From the NCBI RefSeq assembly GCF_036245885.1, contig NZ_BTTX01000008.1: a stretch of DNA of 64,000 nt; one strand, written 5' to 3'. Position numbers and translations under genes: made by a program. Shown here one piece after another: positions 36,196 to 52,388 of this stretch (the stretch's first letter is position 1; the number at the start of each line of letters is the position of its first letter). This stretch comes from Corallococcus caeni. GTDB taxonomy: Bacteria; Myxococcota; Myxococcia; Myxococcales; Myxococcaceae. The notes beneath the pieces were generated by a model, which saw only the letters and a list, made by a program, of their open reading frames with translations, ran no database searches and had not been told where the DNA came from.

Positions 36196-37795
36196 CATGT
36201 TCAACGTCATCAACGTCTCCAAGGCCTACGGGCCCAAGAAACTTTTCGAGGAGGTCAACGTCGCCTTCTCGCCGGGCCGTCGCTACGGCCTGACCGGTCC
36301 GAACGGGGCCGGCAAGTCCACGTTCATGAAGATCCTCGCGGGTGACGAGGAGCAGGACATGGGCGAGATCATCCGCCCGCGGAAGCTGGGCATCCTGCGC
36401 CAGGACCACTTCCGCTACGAGAACGACCGCGTCATCGACGTGGTGCTGATGGGCAACCGCCACCTGTGGGCGGCCATGGACGAGAAGAACAAGCTCCTGG
36501 CCAAGGCCGACATCACGGAAGAGGACGGCAACCGGCTGGGTGAGCTGGAAGGCGTCATCGCGGAGGAGGACGGCTATTCAGCGGAGAGCGACGCGGCCAC
36601 GCTGCTGGCGGGCCTGGGCATCGAGGAGTCCTTCCACGAAGAGCCCATGCGCCAGCTCACCGGCGGCCTGAAGCTGCGCGTGTTGCTCGCGCAGGCGCTG
36701 TTCGGCAAGCCGGAAGGACTGCTGCTGGACGAGCCCACGAACAACCTGGACATCGACTCCATCCGCTGGCTGGAGAACTTCCTCCATGCGTACGAGGGCG
36801 TGCTGATCACCATCAGCCACGACCGGCACTTCCTGAACTCCATCTGCACGCACATCGCGGACATCGATTACGAGACCATCATCCAGTACACGGGTGGTTA
36901 CGACGACATGGTCCGGCAGAAGTCGCAGCTGCGGACCCGGGTCGAGTCCGAGACGGCGGAGAAGAAGAAGAAGATCGCCCAGCTGCAGGACTTCGTGGCG
37001 CGCTTCCACGCGGGCACGCGCGCGTCGCAGGTGCAGAGCCGCATCAAGCAGATCGACAAGCTGAAGACGGAGGACCTGAAGCGCTCGAACATCGCGCGGC
37101 CGTTCATCCGGTTCGACCAGAAGGTGGTCAGCGGCCGTCAGACGCTGATGTTCGAGGGCCTGAAGAAGTCCTTCGACGGGGTGCCGGTCATCAAGCCGTT
37201 CAAGGGGCTGGTCTGCAAGGGCGAGCGCATCTGCGTCATCGGCCGCAACGCGGTGGGCAAGTCCACGCTGGTGAAGATGCTGGCGGGGCAGCTGGAGCCG
37301 GACGCGGGCACCATCACCTGGGGTCACCAGGCGACGGTGGGCTACCTGCCGCAGGACCACCACGGCGTCATCCACAAGGGCACGACGTGCTTCGGCTACC
37401 TCCGGGAGATCAGCGAGAAGCTGACCAACGAGGAGATTTCCGGCGTGCTGGGCCGGATGCTCTTCTCCGGTGAGGAGCGGATGAAGCCCACGGACACGCT
37501 GTCCGGTGGTGAGACGGTGCGCGTGCTGTTGTCCAAGCTGATGATCATGCAGGACAACGTGCTCATCCTGGACGAGCCGACGAACCACCTGGACCTGGAG
37601 TCCATCGCGGCGCTGGCGGAAGGCCTGTCGAAGTTCGAAGGCACGGTCATCTGCGTGACGCACGACCAGGAGCTCATCTCCGAGGTCGCGACCCGCATCT
37701 GGAGCCTGGAGCAGGGCAAGGAAGTGCTCGACTTCAACGGCCCGTATTCGGAGTTCATGGAGAAGCACGCGGACGCGGCGCAGAAGCGCCGGTAG
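36196..37795 (+). CDS. ABC-F family ATPase (EttA/YbiT-like translation factor), two ABC cassettes
   Basis: The ATG at 36196 gives two Walker A sites (GPNGAGKST; GRNAVGKST), two LSGG signatures, and a linker with a charged helix. No TM domain. Confidence 0.9.
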
Positions 37796-37824
37796 TCAGC
37801 ACAGGCTCACAGCAAGGCAGTGCC

Positions 37825-37869
37825 AAACGCCGCCCGTTTCCGGTCCTCCGGAAGCGAGGCGGCGTTTTC
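37825..37869 (+). terminator. intrinsic terminator (10-bp GC stem aaacgccgcc/ggcggcgttt followed by TTTTCG) after the ABC-F gene; also copy 1 of a ~60-nt repeat
   Basis: aaacgccgcccgtttccggtcctccggaagcgaggcggcgttttcg. A related copy lies at ~47262-47330. Confidence 0.6.
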
Positions 37870-37978
37870 GTGGGCTGTCCATCCCTCTTCCGGGTGATGT
37901 CCCTTTCGTGGGGAATGGGCCAGAACCTGGGGTGCCAGGTCGTCCCACCCATGACGACCCGGGGGGGCGAAGACATTC

Positions 37979-40900
37979 ATGACTCCGCACGACTCGGTCC
38001 TGCTGAAAGAGCTTCAGCGGCAACGCACCCGGTTGCTGGATTTGAGCGCAACCAACCGGCTCCTCCACTTCAAGCACACGGCCAGGACGTCGCTGCGAAT
38101 CGTGGATGAACTTCCAGGTGTCGTCTTCGAGCGGCTGAGCAACCACCGCGCGCTCACGTTCCTCCCGGTGACGCCACCGGAGCAGGACTCCGAGGAACAG
38201 GAGGACTTCGACCCCGCCGCCGCGACCGTGGTGTTCTCGATGACCGAGGAGGTCCCCAGCAAGGACGCCCGGCAGAAGCTGCTGCTTCAACAGGCGAAGC
38301 GGCTGGGCATCGACACCCGGTATGAGCTGCCCAAGGCGGCCCCCACGGAGAGCGGCACCCCTCCTCGCAAGCATCAGGACCGCCACCTGCAGACGTTGTA
38401 CTTCCCGGAGGATCTGGAGGGCCACCTGCACCGCCTCCAGGGGCTCGCGCAGACAGCCATCCAGGAGACCGGAGCCAACCTGCTCCACTTCGTCTTCGGG
38501 TTCCTGCGCTGGTACGAGTCTGGTGATACCCGGCAGGAGAAGCCGCGCAGCGCACCGCTCGTGCTCATGCCGGTGAGTCTCAAGCGCGGCCAGGCCCACC
38601 CTGACACCCAGGTACACGCTTACGAGGTCGACTACAACGAAGGCGAGTCCATCGAACTGAACCTCACGCTCCAGGAGAAGCTGAGGCAGGAGTTCGGCAT
38701 CACGCTGCCGACCTTCTCCGCCGAGGAAGGCCTGGAGGCGTACTTCGACAAGGTGACGGCGCTGCTCAAGGGCCTGCGCCCCGGGTGGGGGCTGGAGCGG
38801 CAGGTCACGCTGACACTGCTGTCCTTCGGGCGGCTCCTGATGTGGCGGGACCTGGAGCCCACCCGATGGCCGCAGAACAGTTCCCCGCTGGCCAACCCGC
38901 TCGTTCGCACGCTGATGGGAGGACAGGCGCAGGCGAATGAACCGGGAGGAGGCGCAGGAGGCGGAGGCGGCCTCAGGGAACGCCGAAGCGAGGTCTACGA
39001 CCTGGACTCGCCGGAGCTGAATCCTCCACCCCTCATCACGGACGCGGACAGCAGTCAGCACAGCGTGCTGGTGGACGTGCTCCGGGGTGAGAACCTGGTG
39101 GTGCAGGGACCGCCCGGCACCGGGAAGTCACAGACCATCACCAACCTCATCGGAGCGGCGCTGGCGGCGGGCAAGACCGTGCTGTTCGTCACGCAGAAGC
39201 TGGCGGCGCTGGAGGTCGTCTCACGCCGCCTCCAGCAGGCGGGGCTGGGTGAGTTCTGCCTGGAGCTGCACAGCCACAAGACCCAGAAGCAGCAGTTCAT
39301 GGAGGACCTGCGGCGAAGGCTCAACCTGGACGCAGGCGCGAGCGCTCCCCGGCCGCTCACCGAACAGGTCTCGAGCGCCGCAGGCATCCTGCGCGCGCAT
39401 ACCGAGCGGATGCACAAGCCATTCGGGGCGCTCGGCATGTCACCGCACGACGTGTTCTGGAAGGTCAGTCGCGCGGAGGCGGAGCTGGGAGAAGCAGTCG
39501 TCGAGTTGGAGGGCCTGCGCTTCGAGGGTGCGGAGACCATGTCCTCCACGGCGCTGGCGGAGGTCCGCGACACGGTTCGGGGCCTCGCTGCGCAGTTGGG
39601 GGACGTTCGCCGCGTCGCTCCCCTCCTCTGTGCCCACCCCTGGGCGGGGGTGACGAACGACGCGCTGACGGACAAGGACCGCCAGACACTCGTTCAACGG
39701 ATCTCGGCCTGGGAAGAGTCCACGCTGCTCCTGGAGAAGGCGCTGGCTGCGTTCACAGCCCGAACTGGCGTCACCCCCAGATCGAGCGTGCTTGCGGCGG
39801 ATACCCTGGTTTCCAACGTCCGGGTCCTTCCGCCCCTCCCGGAGGGGGCTCCTCCAGAGCTGATCCCTACCCTGCTTGATGCCACGCAGCGCGAGGGATT
39901 GCGCGCCCTGCTCGATGCCATCGAGTCGGTCCAGGCGCGGTGGGCGGGGCTGGAGGCGGGCTGGCGTGCCCGGGAGGATCTGACCGTACCCGCCGTGCGT
40001 GACGCGCAAGCCATCCTCGACACGGCCCTGCGCCTGCTTTCGCCAGACACCACGCTCGTCACGCTGACACGCGCGCATGAAGCGGTGGATGCAGCAGCCC
40101 GGGCCCTGGCACAGGGACGCCGGTTCATCGCCGCCGTGGCCTCATGCCTGGAGGTGGACGTCACGCCCTGGACGCCCCAGCAGCTCCAGACGTTTGTCCG
40201 CGTCGTCGAAGCGATGGCGGTCCTGGATGACGCCGCCCTGGAGTGGCGGGACGCGCGTTGGGTCGAGCGCGAGGCCGAGGAGTTGCTTCGGAAGGCCGGC
40301 AGCACCTGCTCGGAGCTGAAGGACCAGGCGCGAGCGCTCGCGGTGCGCTTCATGCCCGAACTCGTTCCTCCGCTCACGACGCTCAAGGCACATGCCGTCG
40401 CGGTTTCGACCGCGCCCTTCATCCCCTGGCTCTCGGGTGCATGGCGTGCGGCGAGGCGGGACTTCCAGGCCATGTCCCACGGCGTCCGTCCGACGCGGCC
40501 CGTGTTGCTCCAGGGTTACACCGACCTGCTGGCGCACCACGCGGCGCGGGAGCGATTCCACGAGGACGCGACCTTGAAAGCGACCCTGGGCGCTCGCTTC
40601 CAGGGAGTCGATACGCGTTTCGACCGGATTCTTTCGTGGTTGGACGCCTACCGGAACGTCGATGCATTGCTCCTTTCGCTGGGAGAGCGAGGGGCGGAAC
40701 TCCGCCGCGCGGTGTTGGAGCGGCCGGCGAGCCATTGGCAGGAGGCCCTGGCGAAGACCCGCGTGTGGAGTGACGAGTTGCTCCAGGCCCGCGACGTGAG
40801 CACTACCGTGCAGGAAGCCGCGACGCGCATGGGTCTGCCGCACGCACCCTGGAATACCGAACCCTGCGGCAAGGCCCAGGACAGCCTCGACGCCTTGCTG

Positions 40901-43183
40901 AAGCACCTGGGTGAGGTCCTGAGCTGGGCACGGAAGGGAGATGCCCCGCCGTCCTTGACCCTTTCCCAGCTCCAGGGACAGCTGCGCCGGGTGCGCGACG
41001 CCTGCGAAGCCGAGGACCGGCTGGAAGCGCATGCCCCGGCGGCGGGATTACCAGGGATTGAATACCGGGGTCGGAAGACGTCCCTCGCGGGCCCTCGAAG
41101 CGCCCTGCGCCATGTCGACGTCCTCTTCGCGGCGCCACTGCCCGAGGGGCTGGTGGAGTGGCTGCTGAGGAAGGACACGCCACGGAGGCACGCGGACCTG
41201 CTCACCGCCACGCATGACGTGGAGGTAGCTCTCACCGCCTATAGCCAGTCCGCCAGTCAGGCCTGGGAGCTGGGAAGGATGGCACCCGGCACCTGGGAGG
41301 AACCCGCCGCCGAGAAGCCACTCCAGGCGACGGTCATGCGCCTGCGCCAGGCTCGAAGCCAGTCCGCGACGCTCGCGGCCTGGTGCGCGTACCAACGGCA
41401 GAGGCGCGCCGTCGCGCGAGCGCGGAGCACCCTGGGGTTCCTGGAGCGCGTCGACACCCGTCCTGGCCTGAAGCCTGAGAGGTTGGTCACGGCCTTTGAC
41501 GCCGTCTTCTTCCGCTCCCTGGCGGAAGCCATCCTGCGAGACCAGCCGGAGCTCGATCAATTCACGGGCGCGGTTCACGCCTCCCAGCGTGAGGAGTTCG
41601 CCCGCCTGGACACGCATTGCATCGCAAAGCAGGGCCGATACCTGGCGCGTCAACTCAGTCAGCGTCCGGTTCCTCCCGGCGTGTCGTCGGCAAAGGTTGC
41701 GGGCATGACGGAGACGCATCTCCTGCGGCACGAGCTGGGCAAGAAGCAGCGGCACCTCCCAATTCGCGAGCTGGTGGCACGCGCCGGCAGTGCACTCCAG
41801 ACGTTGATGCCCTGCTTCATGATGGGGCCGCAGTCCGTCGCCCAATACCTGCCCGCCGGGCAGCTGACCTTCGACCTGGTCGTGATGGACGAGGCCAGCC
41901 AGATGCGTCCCGAGGACGCGCTGGGAGCCATTGCCCGAGGTCGGCAATTGGTGGTGGTGGGCGACCCGGAGCAGCTTCCTCCCACCAGCTTCTTCGCGCA
42001 GGTGGAGCAGGAGGACGTCGAAACCGAGGGCGAAGCGGGAGACGAGGTCCAGGGTCCATCCTTCCTGGAGGACTCGGAGAGCATCCTCACGGCGGCGGCG
42101 GAACGGTTTCCCATGCGCATGTTGCGTTGGCATTACCGGTCCCGCCACCCCTCGCTCATCGCCTTCAGCAACCGCGAGTTCTACAACGGCGACCTCATCA
42201 CCTTCCCCGCGCCCGGCGAGCAGTTGGACGGGCTGGGCCTCCACTTCCACCGCGTGGAGCAGGGATTGTACGAGTCCAACCGGAACGTTCCCGAGGCCCG
42301 CGAGGTGCTGGCGGCGGTGAAGGCGCATGCGCGTACGCGCCCGGAGCAGAGCCTGCTGGTCGTCACGTTGAACTCGAAGCAGCGAGAGCTCATCGACGAC
42401 CTGGTGACCGCCGAGGAGAAGAACGACGCGGCCCTCCGGGCCTTCCTGGCGAAGTGGGAGAAGTCCCCCATGCCCTTCGACGTGAAGAACCTGGAGAACG
42501 TCCAGGGCGACGAGCGCGACGCCATCTTCGTGTCGGTCACGTTCGGTCCCGACAAGAACGAGCGCTTCCGGATGAACTTCGGGCCCATCAATCAAGCGGA
42601 CGGGTACCGCCGGCTGAACGTCCTCTTCACGCGGGCGCGGTGCGCGCTGACGGTGTTCGCGTCCTTCGACCCGTCGGAGCTCAAGGTCCAGGAAAGCAGT
42701 CCCCGCGGGATGCGCGTCCTGCAGCGATACCTGTCCGAAGCCAAGGGAGAGAAGGTGGCGCACGGCGTGGGCAGCGGTCGGCCACCCGACTCCGACTTCG
42801 AGATTGCCGTCGCGAAGGCGCTCGTCGCGCGGGGATTCGAAGTGGTCCCGCAGGTGGGCGTCGCGGGTTATTTCATCGACATGGCCCTGCGGCATCCTCG
42901 GCAACCGGGCCGTTACGTCCTTGGCGTCGAGTGTGACGGAGAGAGGTATCACTCGTCACGTTCCGCCCGGGACCGGGACCGCCTCCGGGATCAGGTGCTG
43001 AAGGGCCTGGGATGGAGGCTGCACCGCATCTGGTCCACGGACTGGTTCCGCTCGCCATCGGAAGAGGTCGCCCGGATCGTCGCGCACGTTGAAGAGGTGC
43101 TTCGGGAAGAGGCGGCGGAGCTGCCGGCCGTGGTGCGCGAGGAGCCCGCGGCGGAGAACCAGATGCGCGCCGTCAGCGCCTGA
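37979..43183 (+). CDS. 1734-aa DNA helicase-related protein: DUF4011-like N-terminus, Upf1-like SF1 helicase core (AAA_11/AAA_12), DUF3320, and a C-terminal DUF559 (Vsr/restriction-endonuclease-like) nuclease
   Basis: Motif I VVQGPPGTGKSQTITNLIGAALAAGKTVLFVTQ, motif II LVVMDEASQ, VVVGDPEQLPPT, YRSRHPSLIAFSNREFYNGDL, and a C-terminal VPQVGVAGYFIDMALRHPRQPGRYVLGVECDGERYHSSRSARDRDRLRDQVLKGLGWRLHRIW (PD-(D/E)xK Vsr-like). GC is lower than the core by eye. Confidence 0.85.
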   Translation: MTPHDSVLLKELQRQRTRLLDLSATNRLLHFKHTARTSLRIVDELPGVVFERLSNHRALTFLPVTPPEQDSEEQEDFDPAAATVVFSMTEEVPSKDARQKLLLQQAKRLGIDTRYELPKAAPTESGTPPRKHQDRHLQTLYFPEDLEGHLHRLQGLAQTAIQETGANLLHFVFGFLRWYESGDTRQEKPRSAPLVLMPVSLKRGQAHPDTQVHAYEVDYNEGESIELNLTLQEKLRQEFGITLPTFSAEEGLEAYFDKVTALLKGLRPGWGLERQVTLTLLSFGRLLMWRDLEPTRWPQNSSPLANPLVRTLMGGQAQANEPGGGAGGGGGLRERRSEVYDLDSPELNPPPLITDADSSQHSVLVDVLRGENLVVQGPPGTGKSQTITNLIGAALAAGKTVLFVTQKLAALEVVSRRLQQAGLGEFCLELHSHKTQKQQFMEDLRRRLNLDAGASAPRPLTEQVSSAAGILRAHTERMHKPFGALGMSPHDVFWKVSRAEAELGEAVVELEGLRFEGAETMSSTALAEVRDTVRGLAAQLGDVRRVAPLLCAHPWAGVTNDALTDKDRQTLVQRISAWEESTLLLEKALAAFTARTGVTPRSSVLAADTLVSNVRVLPPLPEGAPPELIPTLLDATQREGLRALLDAIESVQARWAGLEAGWRAREDLTVPAVRDAQAILDTALRLLSPDTTLVTLTRAHEAVDAAARALAQGRRFIAAVASCLEVDVTPWTPQQLQTFVRVVEAMAVLDDAALEWRDARWVEREAEELLRKAGSTCSELKDQARALAVRFMPELVPPLTTLKAHAVAVSTAPFIPWLSGAWRAARRDFQAMSHGVRPTRPVLLQGYTDLLAHHAARERFHEDATLKATLGARFQGVDTRFDRILSWLDAYRNVDALLLSLGERGAELRRAVLERPASHWQEALAKTRVWSDELLQARDVSTTVQEAATRMGLPHAPWNTEPCGKAQDSLDALLKHLGEVLSWARKGDAPPSLTLSQLQGQLRRVRDACEAEDRLEAHAPAAGLPGIEYRGRKTSLAGPRSALRHVDVLFAAPLPEGLVEWLLRKDTPRRHADLLTATHDVEVALTAYSQSASQAWELGRMAPGTWEEPAAEKPLQATVMRLRQARSQSATLAAWCAYQRQRRAVARARSTLGFLERVDTRPGLKPERLVTAFDAVFFRSLAEAILRDQPELDQFTGAVHASQREEFARLDTHCIAKQGRYLARQLSQRPVPPGVSSAKVAGMTETHLLRHELGKKQRHLPIRELVARAGSALQTLMPCFMMGPQSVAQYLPAGQLTFDLVVMDEASQMRPEDALGAIARGRQLVVVGDPEQLPPTSFFAQVEQEDVETEGEAGDEVQGPSFLEDSESILTAAAERFPMRMLRWHYRSRHPSLIAFSNREFYNGDLITFPAPGEQLDGLGLHFHRVEQGLYESNRNVPEAREVLAAVKAHARTRPEQSLLVVTLNSKQRELIDDLVTAEEKNDAALRAFLAKWEKSPMPFDVKNLENVQGDERDAIFVSVTFGPDKNERFRMNFGPINQADGYRRLNVLFTRARCALTVFASFDPSELKVQESSPRGMRVLQRYLSEAKGEKVAHGVGSGRPPDSDFEIAVAKALVARGFEVVPQVGVAGYFIDMALRHPRQPGRYVLGVECDGERYHSSRSARDRDRLRDQVLKGLGWRLHRIWSTDWFRSPSEEVARIVAHVEEVLREEAAELPAVVREEPAAENQMRAVSA

Positions 43184-43196
43184 ACAGGAGACAACC

Positions 43197-44762
43197 ATGA
43201 CCACGATGATTGCCGTTGGACTGGGCGTATTGAGTCTGTTGCTCCTCGGGTTGTGGTTCCAGACACGAAGTCGGCTCAAGGCCGTCCAGGAGCGCTTCAA
43301 GCCCATCCTGGACCTGGAGGCCGAACGGCGGCGGGTGGCCGAGGAGTTGACGCGGGCGCGCACGGACGCGGACGCTGCGCTGGCCGCGGAGCAGAAGCGG
43401 GTCCGCGAAGAGTTGGCGAAAGCCAGGAGCGAGGCGGACAACGCGCTGGCGGCGGAGCAGAAGCGGGTGGAAACCCAGCTGGCCCGGGCCAAGGCGGACG
43501 TGGAGCAAGCCATCACGGCCGAACAGGGCCGGGCGAAGGCGGAGCTGAGCCGGATCCGTGAAGAGACGGCGAAGACAACCCAGAGCGCGACACGCGCCAT
43601 GGAAGAGGCGGAAGCGCGGCGAAAGCAGGCGAACACCGAGCGAACCAGCCTGGAGTCAGGCCTCGCCCGGTTGAAGGCCGAGCTGAAGGCCCTTGAGGAA
43701 GAGGAGGTCCTGCTCTCCTTTGGCTTCTACAAGCCGGTGTACGCCCTCTCGTCCGTGAAGGAATACGAGGACCGCCTGGAGAGGCTCCGCGATTCTCAGA
43801 AACAGATGCTGAAGAACAAGGAAGCCGCCACGTGCTCTCTCCAGTGGGAGGTCAATGGCAGCAAGGCGGAGGGCAAGAAGCAGACGGACCGTACCTTGAA
43901 GCTGATGCTCCGGGCCTTCAATGGCGAAGCGGATGCGTGTGTCGCGAAGGTTTCGTACAAGAACGTGAAGGCAATGGAGACGCGCATCGAGAAGGCAGCT
44001 GCCGCCATAAATGGCCTTGTGGAGATACAGCGGTGTGTCATCGACAGGCGCTACGTCAAGCTCAAGGTCGAGGAGCTGATGCTCGCATATGAGCACTCGG
44101 AGAAGGTGCAACAGGAGCGGGACGAACAGCGCCGCATCCGGGAGCAGATGCGAGAGGAGGAGGCCGCCCAGCGCGAGCTGGAGAAGGCGAAGCTGGAGGC
44201 GGAGCGCGAGTCGAAGCGTGACGCCGAGGCCCTGGCGAAGGCGAAGGCGGACTACGATCGGGCAAAGGGCTCCGAGCAGCAGAAGTTGCTGGAACGCATC
44301 GCCGAGCTGGAGCGCCGCGTGGCCGAAGACCTGGAGAAGCAGCGAGCCATCTCCCAGGCACAGCTCACGCGGACAGGGCACGTCTACGTCATCTCCAACA
44401 TCGGCTCCTTCGGGGAGGGCGTCTACAAGCTGGGGATGACGAGGAGGCTCGTGCCCCAGGACCGCATCGACGAGCTGGGGGATGCATCCGTGCCCTTCGA
44501 GTTCGACGTCCACGCCATCATCCGGACCTCGGATGCCCCGGCCCTGGAGAACGCACTCCACAAGACGTTCGCGAACAGGCGCGTCAACCGCATCAATGAG
44601 CGCAAGGAGTTCTTCCGCGTCAGCCTGGATGAGATCGCCCAGGCCGTGCGAAAGCACCACGGGGAGTTCGAGCTGACCCAGCTTGCTGAGGCCGCGGAGT
44701 ACCGTAAGACCTTGGCGCTCCAAGAGGAGGAGCAGGGCGGTCGACGCGAGCGGGCCGCTTGA
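43197..44762 (+). CDS. membrane-anchored DUF4041-like coiled-coil protein with a C-terminal T5orf172 (Mug113/GIY-YIG-like) nuclease domain
   Basis: An AGGAG RBS precedes the ATG at 43197. N-terminal TM helix (MTTMIAVGLGVLSLLLLGLWF), a long E/R/A/K coiled-coil, and a C-terminus GHVYVISNIGSFGEGVYKLGMTRRLVPQDRIDELGD...FEFDVHAIIRTSDAPALENALHKTFANRRVN typical of T5orf172. It starts 14 nt after the helicase stop. Confidence 0.8.
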   Translation: MTTMIAVGLGVLSLLLLGLWFQTRSRLKAVQERFKPILDLEAERRRVAEELTRARTDADAALAAEQKRVREELAKARSEADNALAAEQKRVETQLARAKADVEQAITAEQGRAKAELSRIREETAKTTQSATRAMEEAEARRKQANTERTSLESGLARLKAELKALEEEEVLLSFGFYKPVYALSSVKEYEDRLERLRDSQKQMLKNKEAATCSLQWEVNGSKAEGKKQTDRTLKLMLRAFNGEADACVAKVSYKNVKAMETRIEKAAAAINGLVEIQRCVIDRRYVKLKVEELMLAYEHSEKVQQERDEQRRIREQMREEEAAQRELEKAKLEAERESKRDAEALAKAKADYDRAKGSEQQKLLERIAELERRVAEDLEKQRAISQAQLTRTGHVYVISNIGSFGEGVYKLGMTRRLVPQDRIDELGDASVPFEFDVHAIIRTSDAPALENALHKTFANRRVNRINERKEFFRVSLDEIAQAVRKHHGEFELTQLAEAAEYRKTLALQEEEQGGRRERAA

Positions 44763-44802
44763 ACTCGAACCTGCCTGCGCTTCTGATAGCGTTCGCCTCC
44801 CG

Positions 44803-46560
44803 ATGAGTTCCTACCCGTTCCTGCATCCGAAGGATGCGCTCCCAAATGCTGTCATTGCTGCCTCTAAAAACCGGAAAATCGCGTTTCTAGTGGGCTCTCC
44901 CTTGTCGACGCAGGAACGAGCCGACGCCCCTCAGGTTCCTGGGGTGGATGCGATGTTGGATCTCATCCGCGAGTACGTTCCGGCCGGATTCCAAGCGAAA
45001 TTCGACACGGAGCGCGAGTACACCAAAGAAAACAAATACCAATGGGCCATGCGCTTCGTGCAAGGCCTTGGTGACAAGGATGTCTCCGAGAAGGTTGTTC
45101 GGGAGGCGGTGCTTCGCGCACGGGTGGACCGCCAACGCGATGGAGCGGCGACCGACGACCAGCTGGATCTGGACCATGGCGGATGGGCCTTGCCGCCCGC
45201 GACGGAGCACCTCGGTAGATTGCTGGTGGAAAGAGCTGAGACGTTTGGTCCTGTCTTGACCACGAACTTTGATCCTCTCATCTCGGCATCGGTGAAGGTG
45301 GCTGGCGGCGATTTCCATCGCACCATCGTGGCCAGCGACATCCCGTTCGGGCAGACAGTCCCCGCCTCATCCAAATCCACACACATCATCCATCTTCACG
45401 GCTACTGGCACCGTTCGCCTACGTTACACACGGGTATCCAGCTTGGTCGCGAGCGCAGACACGTCTCCGCAGAGCTGATCCAGATTCTTCAAGACCACAC
45501 GCTGGTCGTGATCGGGTACGGCGGGTGGGATGACGTCTTCACCCAGACCCTCGCAACCATTGACATCGACCGACACAAGGACGTCGACATCCTCTGGGGG
45601 TTCTACGGAGAAGAAGACGCCGTGATTGAGGCCCGCAATCCAAATCTCTTCAGCAGAGTCGCCAATCTGAGAGGTAGCAAAGGGCTTCGCTGCTATGGCG
45701 GAATCGACTGCCATAAGTTCTTCCCCGACCTGCGGAAACAATTTGGCGCGGCCAGCGCCCAGCTCTCGAACCCTCGAACCGCGGGCCAACCGACACCGCC
45801 ACCCTCCACGCGATCCGACACAAGCGCCAAAGCCACGGTGCAGACTGCGCCGACGTCGCACAGCCCCCCGAAACCTCCTGAGCCCGCGCCACCCGTGCCG
45901 GCTGGCTCAACGCCAGCGCCGAGCACCGCGACTGTCACGGTCTCCCCAGTCATCACGGTCTCTCCTGTCATCCAAGTCCCAGCACCGCCTGTTACACCGA
46001 GTCGTTCGGGCTCCAGTCGGCTCGCGGTCGTCATCGCGGGAGGGGTGATCGCAGGGGGGATTGCCGTGGTCTCGCAGCGACCTGAAAGCGGCAAGGGATC
46101 ACCACCGCTGACGGATGTGCGTCCCATCGAGCAGCCACCTTCCGCCTTCGTGCCCATCGCTCCAGGTGCACAGATCAGGTCTGTGCGCCAGCAGCACCAG
46201 GTCGTGCCTGCGTCAGAATCCGAGCGTGGATCGCGGATCGCTCAGCTTCCGAGAGGTCGCTACGCCTTCCTTCGGCTGGATTCGATTCCGACCTACAACG
46301 CCAACACTCCGACCTACGGGAACCTGCCAGACGGAATCGAGGTTCACCGTGTACGAGCCACTGGCGAACTCTTCCTCGTTGGCTATGCCGAACCTCAAAC
46401 CGTTACGGCGCTCGCATCTACAACCCCCGCGCCCATCGTTCTCGCGGCCACGCCAGGAGGACGGCGCACCCAGGTTGCGAGCGTTCCTGTGATCAGGATG
46501 TCAACGGCCGAAGTGCGGATGGACAAAAGCACCCGCGTTCTCGTGCTTCAACTCAACTAA
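44803..46560 (+). CDS. SIR2_2-type (Sir2-like NADase fold) domain protein with a TM segment and a Pro-rich C-terminal region
   Basis: SIR2_2 hallmarks IAFLVGSPLS, VLTTNFDPLIS, IIHLHGYW and LVVIGYGGWDD. A TM helix (LAVVIAGGVIAGGIAVV) follows. GC is markedly lower (~58% by eye) with atypical codons (aaa, gat, ttg). Confidence 0.75.
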   Translation: MSSYPFLHPKDALPNAVIAASKNRKIAFLVGSPLSTQERADAPQVPGVDAMLDLIREYVPAGFQAKFDTEREYTKENKYQWAMRFVQGLGDKDVSEKVVREAVLRARVDRQRDGAATDDQLDLDHGGWALPPATEHLGRLLVERAETFGPVLTTNFDPLISASVKVAGGDFHRTIVASDIPFGQTVPASSKSTHIIHLHGYWHRSPTLHTGIQLGRERRHVSAELIQILQDHTLVVIGYGGWDDVFTQTLATIDIDRHKDVDILWGFYGEEDAVIEARNPNLFSRVANLRGSKGLRCYGGIDCHKFFPDLRKQFGAASAQLSNPRTAGQPTPPPSTRSDTSAKATVQTAPTSHSPPKPPEPAPPVPAGSTPAPSTATVTVSPVITVSPVIQVPAPPVTPSRSGSSRLAVVIAGGVIAGGIAVVSQRPESGKGSPPLTDVRPIEQPPSAFVPIAPGAQIRSVRQQHQVVPASESERGSRIAQLPRGRYAFLRLDSIPTYNANTPTYGNLPDGIEVHRVRATGELFLVGYAEPQTVTALASTTPAPIVLAATPGGRRTQVASVPVIRMSTAEVRMDKSTRVLVLQLN

Positions 46561-46566
46561 AAGACA

Positions 46567-47247
46567 ATGAAACTCACCCATCGAATCCTTACTTGCCTTG
46601 GCTTGGCGTCCTTCTTGTTGCTTGCCGCATGTGGGCCCGAGGACCTCAGCCCCGGCGGCCCCGACCCCATCACGGATGACCCGCCTCCGCTCACCGAGCT
46701 TTGTACCGCGGAGAGCTGTGAAGGCTGCTGCGACCCAACCACCAACAAGTGCGTCATGACTCGCACCGCCGACGCATGCGGTCCGAACGGCAGCACCTGT
46801 TCCAAGTGCACAACCGGGATGATGTGCCACCCTTCCAAGCAGCAGTGCTACACCCCCACCATCCGCACGAAGATCCAGCCCCTTCGTGCGCAGATCGCGC
46901 CGCTGGATCCCTCTGACAACAGCGACTGGGACGTTGATGGCTCGCCGCCGGATGTCGTGATTCAGCTGTCGTGCCCCAACACGCCAGCCGCCGTACCCCC
47001 TTCGGAGGAAGTTGAGAGCTTCACCCCCACCTGGACGAAGGGCTCATGCGACGTCCTCAGTACCGATCTGCTTTCGGCCCCCATCCAGTTCACCGTCATT
47101 GATGTTGACGCCATCTTCGACGACCCGATTGCGTCGGCGCAGTACCAGATGACCCGCGCCGACATCGACCGTGGCGTCGTGGAGCTCACGGGTTCGAGTG
47201 CATTGCTCTCCGTGGCCTTCCAGGTCACCACCTACTACGCCGAATAG
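46567..47247 (+). CDS. Cys-rich lipoprotein (paralogue of the gene at 51768..52388)
   Basis: Lipobox LLLAACG. An N-terminal Cys-rich module (CTAESCEGCCDPTTNKCV...CSKCTTGMMC). The C-terminal domain has DWDVDGSPPDV. It starts 7 nt after the SIR2-like stop. Confidence 0.7.
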   Translation: MKLTHRILTCLGLASFLLLAACGPEDLSPGGPDPITDDPPPLTELCTAESCEGCCDPTTNKCVMTRTADACGPNGSTCSKCTTGMMCHPSKQQCYTPTIRTKIQPLRAQIAPLDPSDNSDWDVDGSPPDVVIQLSCPNTPAAVPPSEEVESFTPTWTKGSCDVLSTDLLSAPIQFTVIDVDAIFDDPIASAQYQMTRADIDRGVVELTGSSALLSVAFQVTTYYAE

Positions 47248-47261
47248 CCCGTCACCGCACT

Positions 47262-47330
47262 GCGCTCCCAAGCAGTGTCACCGCCGCCCGCTTCCAGTCC
47301 GTCCGGAAGTGAGGCGGCGGGTTCGTCTCG
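47262..47330 (+). repeat. copy 2 of the ~60-nt terminator-like repeat (about 80% identical to 37808-37875)
   Basis: caagcagtgtcaccgccgcccgcttccagtccgtccggaagtgaggcggcgggttcg compared with caaggcagtgccaaacgccgcccgtttccggtcctccggaagcgaggcggcgttttcg. Both copies lie immediately 3' of a plus-strand stop codon. Confidence 0.55.
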
Positions 47331-47518
47331 AGCCGCTACTCCTCACGAGGGATGCACAGGAGGAGTGAAACCGGTCAGAACCCTCTCCTCTACTTGGAGA
47401 TGAGGACTCACCCCTCCTCCTCCCTGCGGTTGAATCTTCCCATCATCTCCACGTCCGGAAGGGACGGGAGTCGTTGGCACCGCGGGCCAGTCCACGCGAG
47501 CCATTTCTGGGGGAGCGC

Positions 47519-48886
47519 ATGTCCAATCAGAGCTTCGAGGTCATCTCGGTCCCACCTCAGCCACGGCGGGTCATTCTGGTCTCGATTGATTGGACGCGCG
47601 ACAAGGATCCTCGCCTTCCGCTGGGACATGCTTCCATCGTCGCGGCACTGCGACATGCAAACGTCGACGTGCGAGCGTTCTCCTTTGCCGTCAATCGCTC
47701 TGACTTCAGTGAGGAGCACATCCTGTGGAGCGTGCTTGAAAGTGCACGGGGACTTGAGGCTCGGGACGTGGACCTGGGCCTTGGCGTCTACGTGTGGAAC
47801 GACCGGGTGGTGAAGAGGCTTCTGGGGGCGGTCCGCCGGAGCGGATTCGCGGGACGTATCATCCTCGGAGGGCCACAGGTCTCCTACGCGGGACCGGGCC
47901 TTGAGCAGCTCTATCCCGAGGCGGATGGATTCGTCCGGGGTTATGGCGAAGAGGCCATGGTGGCGATTGCCGCTACGTCCGAGCGGGTCCGGTTTCCAGG
48001 AGTCCATTGGGCTGGCCAGTTGGATGCTGGCGTCCAAGCACAGGCGAAGCTGGAGACGCTTGCTTCTCCCTTCCTCGAAGACGTGATTGAACTTTCAGGG
48101 GAGCAACGGTTCATCCGGTGGGAAACCCAGCGAGGGTGTCCCTTCCGCTGCTCGTTCTGCCAGCATCGGGAGGCTGGCAGCCGGTTGCGTCGCCGCGATC
48201 TCCCCATGGCACGACTTGAGGAAGAGATTGAGCTGTTCGTGTACTCGGGAGTGAACGACATCGCCGTGCTGGATCCGCTCTTCAATCTCGGGGATCACGC
48301 GCTGGCGGTGCTGCGGACTTTCCAGCGGCTTGACTATCGCGGACGGCTATCTTTGCAGTGCCACTTCTCGACGTTGGATGATGAGTTCCTCGACGCCTGC
48401 GAAGGGCTCGCGGTCCGGCTTGAGTTTGGCCTGCAGACCATCCACGAGAAGGAGGCACGCGCCGTGGAGCGCGTGAATCATCTCGAGAAGGTGGTGGAAG
48501 GAGTCCGCAAGCTCCACGCGCGCGGCATCCCTTTCGAGGTTTCCATCATCTTCGGGCTGCCCGAGCAGACGTTGGAGTCCTTTCGACAAACGGTCGACTT
48601 CTGCCTCCGTCGGCAAGTGCCCGTGCTCAAGGCGTTTCCCCTCATGTTGCTACGGGGAACCCAACTGGAACGTGAGCGGGCACGATGGGGGCTGGAGGAG
48701 AATGACGCCCCCATCCCAAGCGTCATCCGCAGCCACACGTTCAATGAACAGGAGTGGAGTCGGATGGAGGCGCTCGCGGAAGCACTCCGCCAGACTGAAG
48801 GCAGGCATCCGGATTGTGTCGAAGCCTTGGAGGTGCGGGTGGTCTCCCTTCCGGACACTTCCGGCTGGTGGTCACCAGCGGCATAG
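47519..48886 (+). CDS. B12-binding-domain radical SAM enzyme
   Basis: An N-terminal Rossmann-like B12-binding region, the CxxxCxxC motif (QRGCPFRCSFCQH), and a TIM-barrel-like remainder. The ATG at 47519 follows GGGGGAGCGC. Confidence 0.85.
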   Translation: MSNQSFEVISVPPQPRRVILVSIDWTRDKDPRLPLGHASIVAALRHANVDVRAFSFAVNRSDFSEEHILWSVLESARGLEARDVDLGLGVYVWNDRVVKRLLGAVRRSGFAGRIILGGPQVSYAGPGLEQLYPEADGFVRGYGEEAMVAIAATSERVRFPGVHWAGQLDAGVQAQAKLETLASPFLEDVIELSGEQRFIRWETQRGCPFRCSFCQHREAGSRLRRRDLPMARLEEEIELFVYSGVNDIAVLDPLFNLGDHALAVLRTFQRLDYRGRLSLQCHFSTLDDEFLDACEGLAVRLEFGLQTIHEKEARAVERVNHLEKVVEGVRKLHARGIPFEVSIIFGLPEQTLESFRQTVDFCLRRQVPVLKAFPLMLLRGTQLERERARWGLEENDAPIPSVIRSHTFNEQEWSRMEALAEALRQTEGRHPDCVEALEVRVVSLPDTSGWWSPAA

Positions 48887-50457: not shown

Positions 50458-51769
50458 CGCGGACCTTCTCGGGCTCGGGCGCAGCGCTCATCTTCCAGAG
50501 CAGCGCGCCGCCTCCGAGCAGGCTCCCCAGACCCACTGCCGCCGCGAGGATCCAGCCTCGTCTCAAGCAGGGCCGTGCCTGGGTCTCCGGATCGTCGCTC
50601 GCGGTGATCTGCTGGAGGAGCTGGGCCACCTGCCGCGGTGTCACCGGCTCACCCTCCGAGCGGATGAACTGCTCCAGTTCCTCCCGGAACACGTGGCAGT
50701 CCGGGTAGCGCTGGTCCCGATCCTTCGCGAGCGCCCGGGCGAGGATGGCTCGCAGGACTCCGGGCAGGTCCGGGCGGTGCTGCTCGGCGGGCACCATGGG
50801 CTCGGACATGACGGCCCGAGGCAAGTCCCATTCGGACGTGGACGAAAAGGGCCTGCGCGTGGTGAGCAACTCGTAGAGCACCACCCCGAGCGCGTAGACG
50901 TCGACCCGCCGGTCCACCCGCTCGCCCCTTATCTCCTCGGGCGCCATGTACACGTAGCTGCTCATGACGGGGAGCGGGTGTTCGGGGGTCCACCGGGACC
51001 GGAGATGGTCGATGCCGAAGTCCACCACCTTGGTCGTCCCCTGACGCGACAGGAGGACGTTGTACGGCCGGAGGCAGCGGTGGATGAGCCTCAGCGGCTC
51101 GTGCGTCTCGGGGTGGGTCAGGTCGTGGGCATAGGCGAGCCCCTCGCAGGCTTGCGAGATGATGCGCGCGCACAGCGTCGCCGGCAGGGTCATCCGCTGG
51201 ACCGCCAGGTGCTGGATCAACCTGCTCAGGCTGATCCCATCGACGTGCTCCCTGGCGAGGAAGTACGTGCCGTCCGCCTCACCGAAATCAAAGACCTTCA
51301 CGAGGTGCGGGTGCGTGAGCCGGGCGGCGGTCCTCGCCGTGTCGAGGAACAGCTCCGGGAACTCCATCTGCTCGGCCATGTCCGGCCGGAGGCACTGGAG
51401 CACCAGCGTCTTCTCGATGCCCAGCGGGCCAGCGGCCTTGGCCAGATGGTCCTCGATGATGCCTTCGGCGAGCAGGCGGATGCGCTGGTATTGGCCGACG
51501 TGGGATGTCACGAGACAGATGAATAGCAGATCGCCGATCTCATCGAGCGCTGGCAGGGAACGGGGCGTGCCACGCGACGATGGAGCCTGGACGGACCCAT
51601 GGCTACACGGGGTGGCGCCATGAAGCTCGACCTCGTCGTGCTGTTCACCGCAGGCAACGACAACCACGTCGCCATCTGGCGGAAGTTCCGTGAGGATCTG
51701 CTGCCCCGATACATCCTGGCCGCGGTCACCGCGAAGTGAACCCCCTCTGATAGCCTTCCCGGCCGTCAT
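50444..51769 (-). CDS. Ser/Thr-kinase-fold protein with degenerate catalytic motifs (predicted pseudokinase), a C-terminal TM segment and a short tail
   Basis: The kinase fold is recognisable (YQRIRLLAEG...; HPHLVKVFDFGE; VVDFG; YMAPEEI; DVYALGVVLYELLT). However, the Gly loop is A-E-G-I-I-E, the beta3 Lys is Leu (TLVLQ), and HRD is H-R-C (LIHRCLRPYN). The ATG at 51769 overlaps the divergent lipoprotein ATG (CATG); an internal GTG start is possible. Confidence 0.6.
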   Translation of the reverse strand: MTAGKAIRGGSLRGDRGQDVSGQQILTELPPDGDVVVVACGEQHDEVELHGATPCSHGSVQAPSSRGTPRSLPALDEIGDLLFICLVTSHVGQYQRIRLLAEGIIEDHLAKAAGPLGIEKTLVLQCLRPDMAEQMEFPELFLDTARTAARLTHPHLVKVFDFGEADGTYFLAREHVDGISLSRLIQHLAVQRMTLPATLCARIISQACEGLAYAHDLTHPETHEPLRLIHRCLRPYNVLLSRQGTTKVVDFGIDHLRSRWTPEHPLPVMSSYVYMAPEEIRGERVDRRVDVYALGVVLYELLTTRRPFSSTSEWDLPRAVMSEPMVPAEQHRPDLPGVLRAILARALAKDRDQRYPDCHVFREELEQFIRSEGEPVTPRQVAQLLQQITASDDPETQARPCLRRGWILAAAVGLGSLLGGGALLWKMSAAPEPEKVRATPP

Positions 51770-52388
51770 GAAAACGCCCTGCCTGCTCCTGATGGCCCTG
51801 TCGTGCGCCCTCTTCCTCCCGGCCTGCGGTGAGCCCGAGTGCACTCCGGAGAGCTGCGCGAATGGCTGCTGCTCCGTGAGCAACGTGTGCGTTCTCGACC
51901 TCGGCGACGCCCTCTGCGGCTCCAACGGCGCCCGCTGTGAGAGCTGTCCCGACGGCAATGTCTGTCGGCTCGATACCCGGGCCTGTTACGCGGGCGTGAT
52001 GCGGACGCGGGTGCAGCCCCGCCGGGCCTTCATCGCGGACGTCGATCCGGACAACGGCGAGGACTGGGATTCCGACGGCTCCCCGCCCGACGTCGTCGTG
52101 GAGATGCGCTGCCCCTCCGCTCCGGAGCGCACCCGCACCGCCGAGGACGAGAGCTGGGAGCCCGAATGGCGCTCGGGCAGCTGTGAGGTCATCACGTCCA
52201 ACCTCCTCCAGCACCCCATCGAAATCTCCATCTTCGACAACGATGACTTCACCTTCGATGACGAGTTCGGCGGAACCTCCTACCAGGTCACCCGCGCGGA
52301 TCTGAACAGGGGCCACATCGAGCTCGCGTTTCCTCCCATCGTGGAGTCCCTGGTCATCGACCTGACCCACACCTATTCGCCCCAATGA
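51768..52388 (+). CDS. Cys-rich lipoprotein (paralogue of the gene at 46567..47247)
   Basis: MKTPCLLLMALSCALFLPACG lipobox. The same Cys-rich N-module and a C-domain with DWDSDGSPPDV and YQVTRADLNRGHIEL, matching YQMTRADIDRGVVEL in the paralogue. Confidence 0.7.
   Translation: MKTPCLLLMALSCALFLPACGEPECTPESCANGCCSVSNVCVLDLGDALCGSNGARCESCPDGNVCRLDTRACYAGVMRTRVQPRRAFIADVDPDNGEDWDSDGSPPDVVVEMRCPSAPERTRTAEDESWEPEWRSGSCEVITSNLLQHPIEISIFDNDDFTFDDEFGGTSYQVTRADLNRGHIELAFPPIVESLVIDLTHTYSPQ

What the first reader, a model, noticed from the sequence alone, without database searches (positions are those of the whole stretch)
37808..47330. ~60-nt terminator-like direct repeats bracket the first 9.4 kb of the island
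Sequence 1 (37811-37869) is caaggcagtgccaaacgccgcccgtttccggtcctccggaagcgaggcggcgttttcg. Sequence 2 (47268-47325) is caagcagtgtcaccgccgcccgcttccagtccgtccggaagtgaggcggcgggttcg. They are about 80% identical with one indel. Each lies directly after a plus-strand stop codon and each contains a GC-rich hairpin. They enclose exactly the helicase-nuclease, DUF4041/T5orf172, SIR2 and lipoprotein genes. They could be duplicated attachment or target sites from an insertion event. Alternatively they could be a dispersed REP-like terminator family that happens to occur twice here.
Basis: seen in the sequence. Interest (0 to 1): 0.55.

Follow-up and report, generated by a model that had tools for sequence, protein, structure and literature searches.

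The report
Duplicated gene-end hairpin at defence hotspot
The two repeats are diverged copies of the hairpin that ends a conserved ABC-F gene in Corallococcus; the second copy looks like a scar left when two alternative versions of a phage-defence gene hotspot were joined head to tail, and it is neither a genome-wide repeat family nor a mobile-element attachment site.

Summary
Two ~57-nt GC-rich hairpins (37813-37869 and 47270-47325; 47 matches, 80% over 59 aligned columns) each follow a plus-strand stop codon. They bracket the Hhe-like helicase-nuclease, PD-Lambda-1 (DUF4041/T5orf172), SIR2 and lipoprotein genes.

- **Not a REP family.** A pattern that matches every allele found 14 stretches in 185,579 species genomes. 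Each Corallococcus genome has one copy, always right after the ABC-F stop codon. This includes two complete chromosomes. No viral contig matched.
- **Empty sites exist.** In three C. exiguus strains the ABC-F hairpin runs straight into orf145 and the radical-SAM gene. The window's second copy and its right flank are colinear with that arrangement.
- **Not an attachment site.**
  - The same island sits at the same place in other strains with only one hairpin.
  - No recombinase gene lies nearby.
  - The longest identical run between the copies is 9 nt.
  - The two copies match different pre-existing allele classes.
  - An independent duplication in C. carmarthensis has different boundaries and carries about 24 nt of the ABC-F coding end.

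Best reading: copy 1 is the native ABC-F terminator-like hairpin at the left edge of a core-gene-flanked defence hotspot. Copy 2 is a retained border from a second hotspot haplotype, joined by illegitimate recombination. This is ordinary biology, useful mainly as a marker of how such hotspots grow.

The parts
36197..37795 (+). Conserved ABC-F ATPase gene (532 aa), the left core flank of the hotspot
   Evidence: Pfam ABC_tran x2 plus ABC_tran_Xtn. It is 95-100% identical in protein across Corallococcus species and is always followed by the hairpin.
37796..37812 (+). Hypervariable spacer between the ABC-F stop codon and the hairpin unit
   Evidence: Two allele classes (TCAGCAC... and TCCTTCG/TCCCGCG...) are shuffled among strains. 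The window and L001 differ here although both flanks are identical.
37813..37869 (+). Repeat copy T1, the native 3' hairpin of ABC-F (stem-loop 37827-37865, then TTTT)
   Evidence: The hairpin segment is 100% identical to the alleles in L001, L002, L014, L016 and L021. The 16-bp stem is paired in 98.9% of cells over 22 copies.
37880..37899 (+). Second small hairpin ('motif 2', CATCCCTC-TTCC-GGGTGATG), the last conserved element before the variable cargo
   Evidence: Present in most haplotypes. Homology between different cargo contexts ends just after it. As a helix it is 75% paired, and 5 of its 8 pairs show changes on both sides.
37979..43183 (+). Helicase-nuclease (DUF4011, SF1 helicase, MTES_1575 REase), Hhe/PDC-S37-like
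   Evidence: Pfam. PADLOC PDC-S37 E = 0 and Hhe E = 3e-279.
43197..44762 (+). DUF4041 (SNIPE) - T5orf172 protein, PD-Lambda-1-like
   Evidence: Pfam. PADLOC PD-Lambda-1 E = 1e-153.
44803..46560 (+). SIR2_2-domain protein
   Evidence: Pfam SIR2_2 E = 1.6e-7. Weak PADLOC SIR2 matches.
46567..47247 (+). Lipoprotein (LIPO), the last gene of the bracketed block
   Evidence: No Pfam or PADLOC hit. It is 40% identical to LIPO2 at 51768-52388. It is the last gene of the block in every occupied locus.
47270..47325 (+). Repeat copy T2, a diverged second copy of the ABC-F 3' hairpin (stem-loop 47281-47320)
   Evidence: It is 83-86% identical to every orthologous allele. The stem is kept through G-C/G.U/A-U and U.G/C-G changes.
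47266..47412 (+). Whole retained 'ABC-F 3' flank' segment around T2: hairpin, motif 2 and the former orf145 leader
   Evidence: Aligns to L002 1758-1906 (75%, E = 7e-21) and L007 1702-1849. The 75 nt to its right are closest to L022 (85%).
47519..48886 (+). B12-binding radical-SAM gene (PDC-M51A-like), the first gene of the second unit
   Evidence: Pfam. PADLOC PDC-M51A E = 2e-152. It directly follows hairpin + orf145 in the empty-site strains.
51768..52388 (+). LIPO2 (C2-like lipoprotein), the right core flank of the whole island
   Evidence: In L010 a LIPO2-like gene directly follows the ABC-F hairpin, then the BrkB and rml genes as in the window's genome.

Best explanation
T1 is the native 3'-end hairpin of the conserved ABC-F gene. 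It most likely acts in the mRNA as an intrinsic terminator or 3' stabiliser. Together with a second small hairpin it forms the fixed left border of a variable, core-gene-flanked defence hotspot in Corallococcus. T2 is a second, diverged copy of that same border, and it stayed attached to the radical-SAM module. The window's island therefore reads as two alternative hotspot haplotypes joined head to tail: [border - Hhe-like helicase - PD-Lambda-1 - SIR2 - lipoprotein] followed by [border - (orf145 deleted) - radical SAM - p483 - kinase - LIPO2]. The join was probably made by recombination between two strains' versions of the locus. One side would have been anchored in homologous core DNA. The other would have been an illegitimate junction within about 12-20 nt after the lipoprotein stop codon. 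Shown: the homology relationships, the copy number, the empty sites and the different allele origins. Inferred: the recombination mechanism, the direction of the event and the terminator function.
For: (1) Locus-specific and single-copy. The pattern matched 14 stretches in 185,579 species genomes. There is one per Corallococcus genome, including the complete chromosomes of C. exercitus SDU142 and C. coralloides KYC2213. Every one of these sits right after the ABC-F stop codon. (2) Empty sites L002, L005 and L007 have ABC-F - T - orf145 - rSAM. Window 47266-47412 and 47466-47700 align to L002 1758-1906 and 2397-2630, which is colinear apart from a clean orf145 deletion. (3) T1 and T2 represent two allele classes that exist unduplicated elsewhere. 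T1's hairpin is 100% identical to the alleles in L001, L002, L014, L016 and L021. T1's motif-2 allele (…GGGTGATGTCCC) is the one seen in L006 and L015. T2's flank is closest to L022, at 85%. (4) The window and sister strain L001 are 94.5-100% identical per 200-nt bin (about 98% on average) across ABC-F and the island. Identity falls to 83-85% exactly at the lipoprotein stop codon, where T2 begins. That marks a boundary between segments with different histories. (5) L024 is an independent case. Its two copies bracket a Kelch lipoprotein, and the second copy carries about 24 nt of the ABC-F coding end plus a different spacer class. (6) The hairpin is under selection as a plus-strand structure. 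It is 98.9% paired, G-C/G.U/A-U and U.G/C-G changes keep the pairing, and the loop and spacer vary freely. (7) The hotspot cargo differs among strains whose ABC-F proteins are 95-100% identical to the window's: Hhe, PD-Lambda-1, SIR2, PDC-M51A, Shedu and AriA/PtuA-like ATPases. No mobility genes lie within about 10 kb.
Against: The direction of the event cannot be decided from these data. The helicase block may have entered an rSAM-type locus, or the rSAM unit may have been added behind a helicase-type locus. No donor or recipient haplotype at 98% identity or better was found. The T2 hairpin is more diverged (83-86%) than any orthologous allele, so an old in-lineage duplication followed by allelic replacement of one copy is not excluded. 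Most haplotypes break at the same point, right after motif 2, and that regularity could hint at a site-directed process. The simple terminator scan flagged neither copy. The stem is bulged, T1 has only four T's after it, and T2 in the window has GGGTTCG there. Terminator function is therefore inferred. The genome-wide count rests on an exact degenerate pattern and on one genome per species. The window's own genome was not scanned in full.
Confidence: 0.62

Rival explanations
1. The repeats are attL/attR-type duplicated attachment sites, or a target-site duplication. On this reading a mobile island (helicase - PD-Lambda-1 - SIR2 - lipoprotein) integrated site-specifically into the ABC-F terminator.
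For: There are exactly two direct copies bracketing the block, and an empty site with one copy exists in related strains. A second duplication at the same site occurs in L024. GC content dips across the island.
Against: The same island at the same site in L003, L004, L008 and L009 has no second copy. The complete C. coralloides chromosome, which carries the helicase gene here, has one copy genome-wide. No integrase, transposase or relaxase gene lies in the block or within about 10 kb. The longest identical run between the copies is 9 nt. The two copies belong to different pre-existing allele classes. The L024 duplication has different left and right end points. No viral contig carries the site.
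Confidence: 0.1
2. An in-lineage local duplication of the ABC-F 3' region arose when the cargo was inserted by a non-specific event such as slippage or double-strand-break repair. Initially identical copies then diverged, and one copy was later overwritten by homologous recombination with other strains.
For: T2 carries unique derived changes shared by the window and L001 (AAGCAGTGTC, GAAGTG), which shows some age. Mosaic allele shuffling around the hairpin is evident, because the window and L001 differ only in the 17-25-nt spacer.
Against: It needs two steps where one suffices. T2's 75-nt right flank and T1's right flank each match a different allele class that exists unduplicated in other strains. 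The divergence step between the window and L001 falls exactly at the junction.
Confidence: 0.17
3. The hairpin plus motif 2 is a dedicated cassette-recombination site, analogous to integron attI/attC. A trans-encoded recombinase would stack defence cassettes behind ABC-F, and T2 would be a cassette boundary.
For: At least four different first genes (helicase, DUF4041, orf145, LIPO2-like) begin after the same point at the end of motif 2. In the C. praedator pair, 98.7% homology ends exactly there. The bulged imperfect hairpin has a conserved extrahelical base. There are two independent duplications.
Against: No integron integrase or other recombinase lies in the neighbourhood. Haplotypes L016, L017 and L024 break elsewhere, immediately after hairpin 1. 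Cassettes generally do not end in a copy of the site. The site occurs at only one locus per genome. G.U-type covariation points to an RNA-level plus-strand constraint.
Confidence: 0.05
4. The repeats belong to a dispersed REP-like or terminator repeat family that happens to occur twice in this window.
For: GC-rich palindromes after stop codons are what REP or BIME-like families look like. The CGCCGCC...GGCGGCG stem is a common high-GC motif.
Against: There is one match per Corallococcus genome, always at ABC-F, with a pattern loose enough to catch the 83%-identical T2 copies. This includes two complete 9.7-10.1-Mb chromosomes. Only three unrelated hits turned up in all other genomes. There are only two copies in the 64-kb window.
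Confidence: 0.02

Closest known systems
Core defence hotspots (cDHS) flanked by conserved core genes, as described in Pseudomonas aeruginosa (PMC10250203)
   Same: The flanking core genes are constant: ABC-F on the left and LIPO2/BrkB/rml on the right. The cargo is highly variable and rich in defence systems (Hhe, PD-Lambda-1, SIR2, PDC-M51A, Shedu, AriA/PtuA-like ATPases). There are no hallmark genes of mobile elements. That paper proposes turnover by homologous recombination through the flanks, which would leave no MGE scars.
   Different: The genus and the flanking genes differ. Here one haplotype does carry a visible scar, a duplicated copy of the left border. That is not a described feature of cDHS.
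Direct repeats (attL/attR) flanking integrase-borne genomic islands, typically duplicated tRNA 3' ends
   Same: The repeats are direct copies of the 3' end of a conserved gene and they bracket horizontally acquired cargo. An empty site with one copy exists in relatives.
   Different: There is no integrase and no long identical core (at most 9 nt). The second repeat is absent in most strains that carry the same island. The duplication end points vary between independent events.
Homology-facilitated illegitimate recombination during natural transformation (de Vries and Wackernagel 2002; cited from my own knowledge, not read here)
   Same: It has one homologous anchor plus one illegitimate junction at microhomology. 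It adds foreign DNA next to a conserved gene and can duplicate the sequence between the anchor and the junction.
   Different: This is inferred only from sequence relationships. Neither parent haplotype was recovered and the junction microhomology is ambiguous.
Rho-independent (intrinsic) transcription terminators
   Same: A GC-rich stem-loop lies 30-35 nt after a stop codon on the coding strand and is followed by TTTT in T1. The stem is conserved, the loop varies, and wobble-type covariation is valid only for the plus-strand RNA.
   Different: The stem is long (16 bp) and bulged, and the U-tract is short. In the window's T2 the tract is degraded to GGGTTCG. No experimental 3'-end data exist.
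REP/BIME repetitive extragenic palindromes
   Same: It is an extragenic GC-rich imperfect palindrome placed after gene ends.
   Different: It is single-locus rather than dispersed, and no RAYT-type transposase is associated with it.

Membership tests
REP-like dispersed palindrome family | Tens to hundreds of similar copies per genome at unrelated intergenic sites | tested here: not met
   There is one pattern match per Corallococcus genome, including two complete chromosomes, and it is always after ABC-F. The window holds two copies only.
Integrase-mediated island with att duplication | A tyrosine or serine recombinase (or transposase) gene in or next to the island | tested here: not met
   Pfam and PADLOC on all island ORFs, plus precomputed Pfam for genes about 10 kb either side, show none.
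Integrase-mediated island with att duplication | The repeat pair accompanies the island wherever the island is integrated | tested here: not met
   L003, L004, L008 and L009 carry the island with a single hairpin. Genomes with the helicase at this site have one pattern match.
Integrase-mediated island with att duplication | An identical core sequence shared by the two repeats (the crossover region) | tested here: inconclusive
   The longest identical run is 9 nt (CGCCGCCCG). This is short, but some recombinases use cores of 7-9 nt.
Integrase-mediated island with att duplication | The same duplication end points in independent integrations | tested here: not met
   The window's copy starts in the spacer and includes motif 2. 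The L024 copy starts about 24 nt inside ABC-F and ends right after hairpin 1.
Intrinsic terminator | A stable GC-rich stem-loop immediately followed by a U-tract, downstream of a stop codon on the sense strand | tested here: inconclusive
   The hairpins are strong and conserved. T1 has a TTTT tail and the window's T2 has GGGTTCG. The consensus terminator scan flagged neither copy.
Intrinsic terminator | Transcript 3' ends map to the tail of the hairpin | not testable with these tools
   This needs Term-seq or 3' RACE.
Core-gene-flanked defence hotspot | The same conserved flanking genes with different cargo in closely related strains | tested here: met
   At least seven cargo configurations follow ABC-F in the Corallococcus loci examined, and most run on to the p483/kinase or LIPO2 genes. 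The ABC-F proteins are 95-100% identical to the window's.
Core-gene-flanked defence hotspot | Cargo enriched in known or candidate anti-phage systems | tested here: met
   PADLOC matches: PDC-S37/Hhe, PD-Lambda-1, PDC-M51A, SduA, and AriA/PtuA-like ATPases.
Integron-like cassette array | An IntI integrase with adjacent attI, and attC hairpins at the 3' end of each cassette | tested here: not met
   No integrase lies in any of the neighbourhoods. Most cargo units do not end in a hairpin copy.
Known RNA families (Rfam 15) | A score at or above a family's gathering threshold | tested here: not met
   The best matches are 18 bits against a threshold of 57 (RsmY) and 20 against 65. All matches are below threshold.

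The most novel reading that the evidence does not exclude
The ABC-F 3' hairpin plus motif 2 is a dedicated landing or recombination site at which Corallococcus stacks defence cassettes through a trans-acting, not yet identified recombinase. This would be a chromosomal, integron-like defence-cassette platform. T2 and the L024 duplicate would then be cassette boundaries rather than accidents.
Probability: 0.06. Interest if true: 0.65.

Novelty: new member of a known kind. Interest (0 to 1): 0.25.

Why it matters
How core-gene-flanked defence hotspots gain and lose cargo without mobile-element genes is an acknowledged open point (discussion of PMC10250203). Here a duplicated copy of the hotspot's own border survives between two cargo units, and each copy can be traced to a different allele class. 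That gives a concrete footprint of one growth step: two alternative haplotypes concatenated rather than swapped. It also gives a practical marker, the ABC-F 3' hairpin, for locating and comparing this hotspot across Corallococcus genomes. The repeats themselves do not point to a new mechanism.

Tried and rejected
- **Fuzzy regex search of all loci:** it timed out and was replaced by blastn-short.
- **REP family:** rejected by the genome-wide pattern scan.
- **Phage or plasmid attP:** no viral contig matched and only two stray metagenomic hits appeared.
- **tRNA-linked integration:** the window has no tRNA or tmRNA gene.
- **Known structured RNA:** nothing in Rfam reaches threshold.
- **Third copy behind the paralogous lipoprotein gene LIPO2:** none present.
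- **Extended T1/T2 repeat of about 130 nt:** direct similarity beyond the hairpin is not significant. The 5% 'self-partner' values come from the free-end-gap settings and were ignored.
- **Exact-protein look-ups for the window's radical-SAM and lipoprotein proteins:** these returned only the window's own genome (Logan DRR510904) and no further haplotypes.
- **Consensus promoter and terminator scan:** it found no promoter-like site and flagged neither hairpin.
Full report
**Observation.**
- T1 (37813-37869) begins 18 nt after the stop codon of a 532-aa ABC-F ATPase gene (36197-37795).
- T2 (47270-47325) begins 22 nt after the stop codon of a 226-aa lipoprotein gene (46567-47247).
- The cores share 47 matches, 79.7% over 59 aligned columns, and none of 500 shuffles scored as high.
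- Both fold into long, bulged, GC-rich hairpins: -46.1 and -37.2 kcal/mol, with z-scores of -5.8 and -3.5.
- Half-site searches allowing 3 mismatches find no further copy in the 64-kb window.
- The enclosed genes are as described: a DUF4011/SF1-helicase/MTES_1575 nuclease (PADLOC PDC-S37/Hhe), a DUF4041-T5orf172 protein (PD-Lambda-1; Pfam now calls DUF4041 'SNIPE', see PMC13190303), a SIR2_2 protein and a lipoprotein.
- The gene after T2 is a B12-binding radical-SAM protein that matches the candidate defence protein PDC-M51A.
- GC content is 61-69% from about 36 to 49 kb, against about 70-75% over most of the rest of the window.

**Source and relatives.** The ABC-F protein is identical in GCA_036245865.1 (L001). 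It is 95-99.6% identical in named Corallococcus species. The closest are C. exercitus AB043A (99.6%) and SDU142 (99.2%), so I infer that the window comes from that species group. L001 is a sister strain, not the same genome. The window's own genome appears only as a Logan assembly of run DRR510904.

**Is it a dispersed family?** I built a degenerate pattern that matches every allele seen, including both diverged T2 copies. I scanned one genome from each of 185,579 species with it.
- It hit 14 stretches in total.
- Eleven are Corallococcus or Myxococcaceae. Each of those genomes has one stretch with one match, except C. carmarthensis, whose single stretch holds two.
- Two of the single-copy genomes are complete chromosomes: C. 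exercitus SDU142 (10.1 Mb) and C. coralloides KYC2213 (9.7 Mb).
- In every one of these loci the match lies directly after the ABC-F stop codon.
- Three hits in unrelated taxa have no ABC-F next to them and are most simply chance matches.
- No viral contig matched and only two metagenomic contigs did.
- No Rfam family reaches threshold and the window has no tRNA gene.

The hairpin is a locus-specific feature of the ABC-F 3' end.

**Empty and occupied sites.** Neighbourhoods of near-identical ABC-F genes show a highly variable region behind the hairpin.

| Loci | Arrangement after ABC-F and T |
|---|---|
| L002, L005, L007 (C. exiguus) | orf145 - radical SAM.
| L003, L004 | helicase - DUF4041 - SIR2 - lipoprotein, then a convergent pentapeptide gene. 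|
| L006, L015 | Begin with a DUF4041 gene. |
| L022 | orf145 - Shedu (SduA, E = 2e-132). |
| L008, L009 (C. praedator) | The helicase block, followed by a LIPO2-like gene. |
| L010 | The LIPO2-like gene directly after T. |

L010's gene order continues into the BrkB and rml genes, as in the window's genome. L010 is therefore the empty state of the whole ~14-kb island.

Other cargo includes AriA/PtuA-like AAA_21 ATPases. No integrase or transposase lies in or near the island. The one exception is an IS66 that sits elsewhere in L005. This is the anatomy of a core-gene-flanked defence hotspot (compare PMC10250203).

**What T2 is.** T2 and its surroundings are not merely similar to T1. They are orthologous to the ordinary ABC-F 3' flank of radical-SAM-type strains.
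- Window 47266-47412 aligns to L002 1758-1906, from just before the hairpin to the base before the orf145 start codon.
- Window 47466-47700 aligns to L002 2397-2630, in the radical-SAM gene.
- The only difference is a clean loss of orf145.
- The 75 nt to the right of T2 are closest to L022 (85%).
- The T1 hairpin is 100% identical to the alleles in L001, L002, L014, L016 and L021.
- T1's motif-2 allele (…GGGTGATGTCCC) is the one seen unduplicated in L006 and L015.

The two copies therefore descend from two allele classes that already exist in the population. That is not what a fresh target-site duplication would give.

In line with this, the window and L001 are 94.5-100% identical per 200-nt bin (about 98% on average) across ABC-F and the island. 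Identity drops to 83-85% exactly at the lipoprotein stop codon. T2 thus sits on a boundary between segments with different histories.

**Evidence against an attachment site.**
- The same island at the same position has no second hairpin in L003, L004, L008 and L009.
- Genomes carrying the helicase here have one pattern match genome-wide.
- In the C. praedator pair, 98.7% homology ends at the end of motif 2. It resumes only at the LIPO2-like gene, at 76%, with no repeat.
- The longest identical run between T1 and T2 is 9 nt. From general knowledge of minimal processing segments, that is also too short for efficient RecA-mediated deletion.
- C. carmarthensis L024 is the only other genome with two copies. 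They bracket an 833-aa Kelch/Big_7 lipoprotein rather than a defence block.
- The second L024 copy begins about 24 nt inside the ABC-F coding end (…GACGCGGCGGTCAAGCGCCGGTAG). It carries the other spacer class and ends right after hairpin 1.
- Different end points and different alleles in two independent events argue for illegitimate joining of haplotypes rather than a site-specific crossover.

**What the hairpin does.**
- Over 22 copies, RNAalifold gives a 16-bp stem.
- 98.9% of cells are paired, against 39-49% for the whole two-helix structure (91.2% as given) when the partners are slid.
- Eleven pairs never vary.
- The pairs that do vary change as G-C / G.U / A-U or U.G / C-G. These changes are neutral only for the plus-strand transcript.
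- The loop and the 17-25-nt spacer upstream vary freely.
- With its position after a stop codon and its TTTT tail, the most likely role is an intrinsic terminator or 3' stabiliser of the ABC-F mRNA.
- This role is inferred. The consensus terminator scan did not flag it, and T2 in the window has lost the T-run.

**Model.** The island is best read as two hotspot units in tandem. Each starts with the ABC-F 3' border and ends with a lipoprotein of the same family: [T1 - Hhe - PD-Lambda-1 - SIR2 - LIPO] and [T2 - radical SAM - p483 - kinase - LIPO2]. LIPO and LIPO2 are 40% identical.

The likely origin is recombination between two strains' versions of the locus. One crossover would lie in shared core DNA and the other would be an illegitimate junction within about 12-20 nt after the LIPO stop codon. 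That is the homology-facilitated illegitimate recombination type, which I cite from my own knowledge.

Which unit was resident and which arrived cannot be decided.

**Verdict.** The REP reading is refuted. The 'insertion scar' geometry is right but the attachment-site mechanism is not supported. This is an ordinary, explainable feature of a previously undescribed Corallococcus defence hotspot, and interest is low to moderate.

Noticed in passing
window 46567-47247 and 51768-52388: The last gene of the bracketed block (LIPO) and the right core flank of the whole island (LIPO2, weak C2 domain) are paralogous lipoproteins, 40% identical at E = 1e-44. Both borders of the hotspot are therefore represented twice: T1/T2 and LIPO/LIPO2.
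   Followed up: partly
window 37796-37812 (and the same position in L001-L024): The 17-25-nt spacer between the ABC-F stop codon and the hairpin is hypervariable and falls into two allele classes. The window and L001 differ completely here, while the last bases of ABC-F shown on one side and the 100 nt or more from GGCAGTG onward on the other are identical. This suggests very fine-scale allele shuffling.
   Followed up: partly
window 37880-37931 and 47336-47386: A second small hairpin (CATCCCTC-TTCC-GGGGGATG type) is followed about 20 nt later by a conserved CAGAAC/CAAGAC box. The pair precedes the first cargo gene in most haplotypes, whatever that gene is. It could be a shared promoter or regulatory site. 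The sigma-70 scan found nothing here.
   Followed up: partly
window 47413-47465 versus L002 1909-2396: orf145 encodes a secreted 145-aa protein with no family match. It follows the hairpin in L002, L005, L007 and L022 but is cleanly deleted in the window and in L001.
   Followed up: yes
L024 3397-5898: In C. carmarthensis the duplicated ABC-F hairpins bracket an 833-aa Kelch/Big_7 lipoprotein, not a defence gene. The window itself has a large Kelch-repeat gene with 144-147-nt tandem repeats at about 23.7-25.6 kb.
   Followed up: partly
L003, L004, L006, L008 versus window 37979-47247: The island proteins are far more diverged between strains than the flanking ABC-F. Against the window the helicase is 69-72% identical, SIR2 48-62% and LIPO 56-78%, compared with 96-98% for ABC-F. 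L006 and L015 lack the helicase altogether. This suggests old, diversifying alleles of the same defence block.
   Followed up: no
L005 3899-6105: An IS66-family element (TnpB_IS66 plus a DDE transposase) is inserted between the radical-SAM gene and the AAA_21-methyltransferase gene in one C. exiguus strain. It is the only mobility gene seen in any version of the hotspot.
   Followed up: no
window 49006-50457: p483 is a conserved 483-aa protein with no Pfam or PADLOC match. It is always paired with a convergent Ser/Thr kinase gene and is present in most haplotypes as a semi-core part of the hotspot.
   Followed up: no
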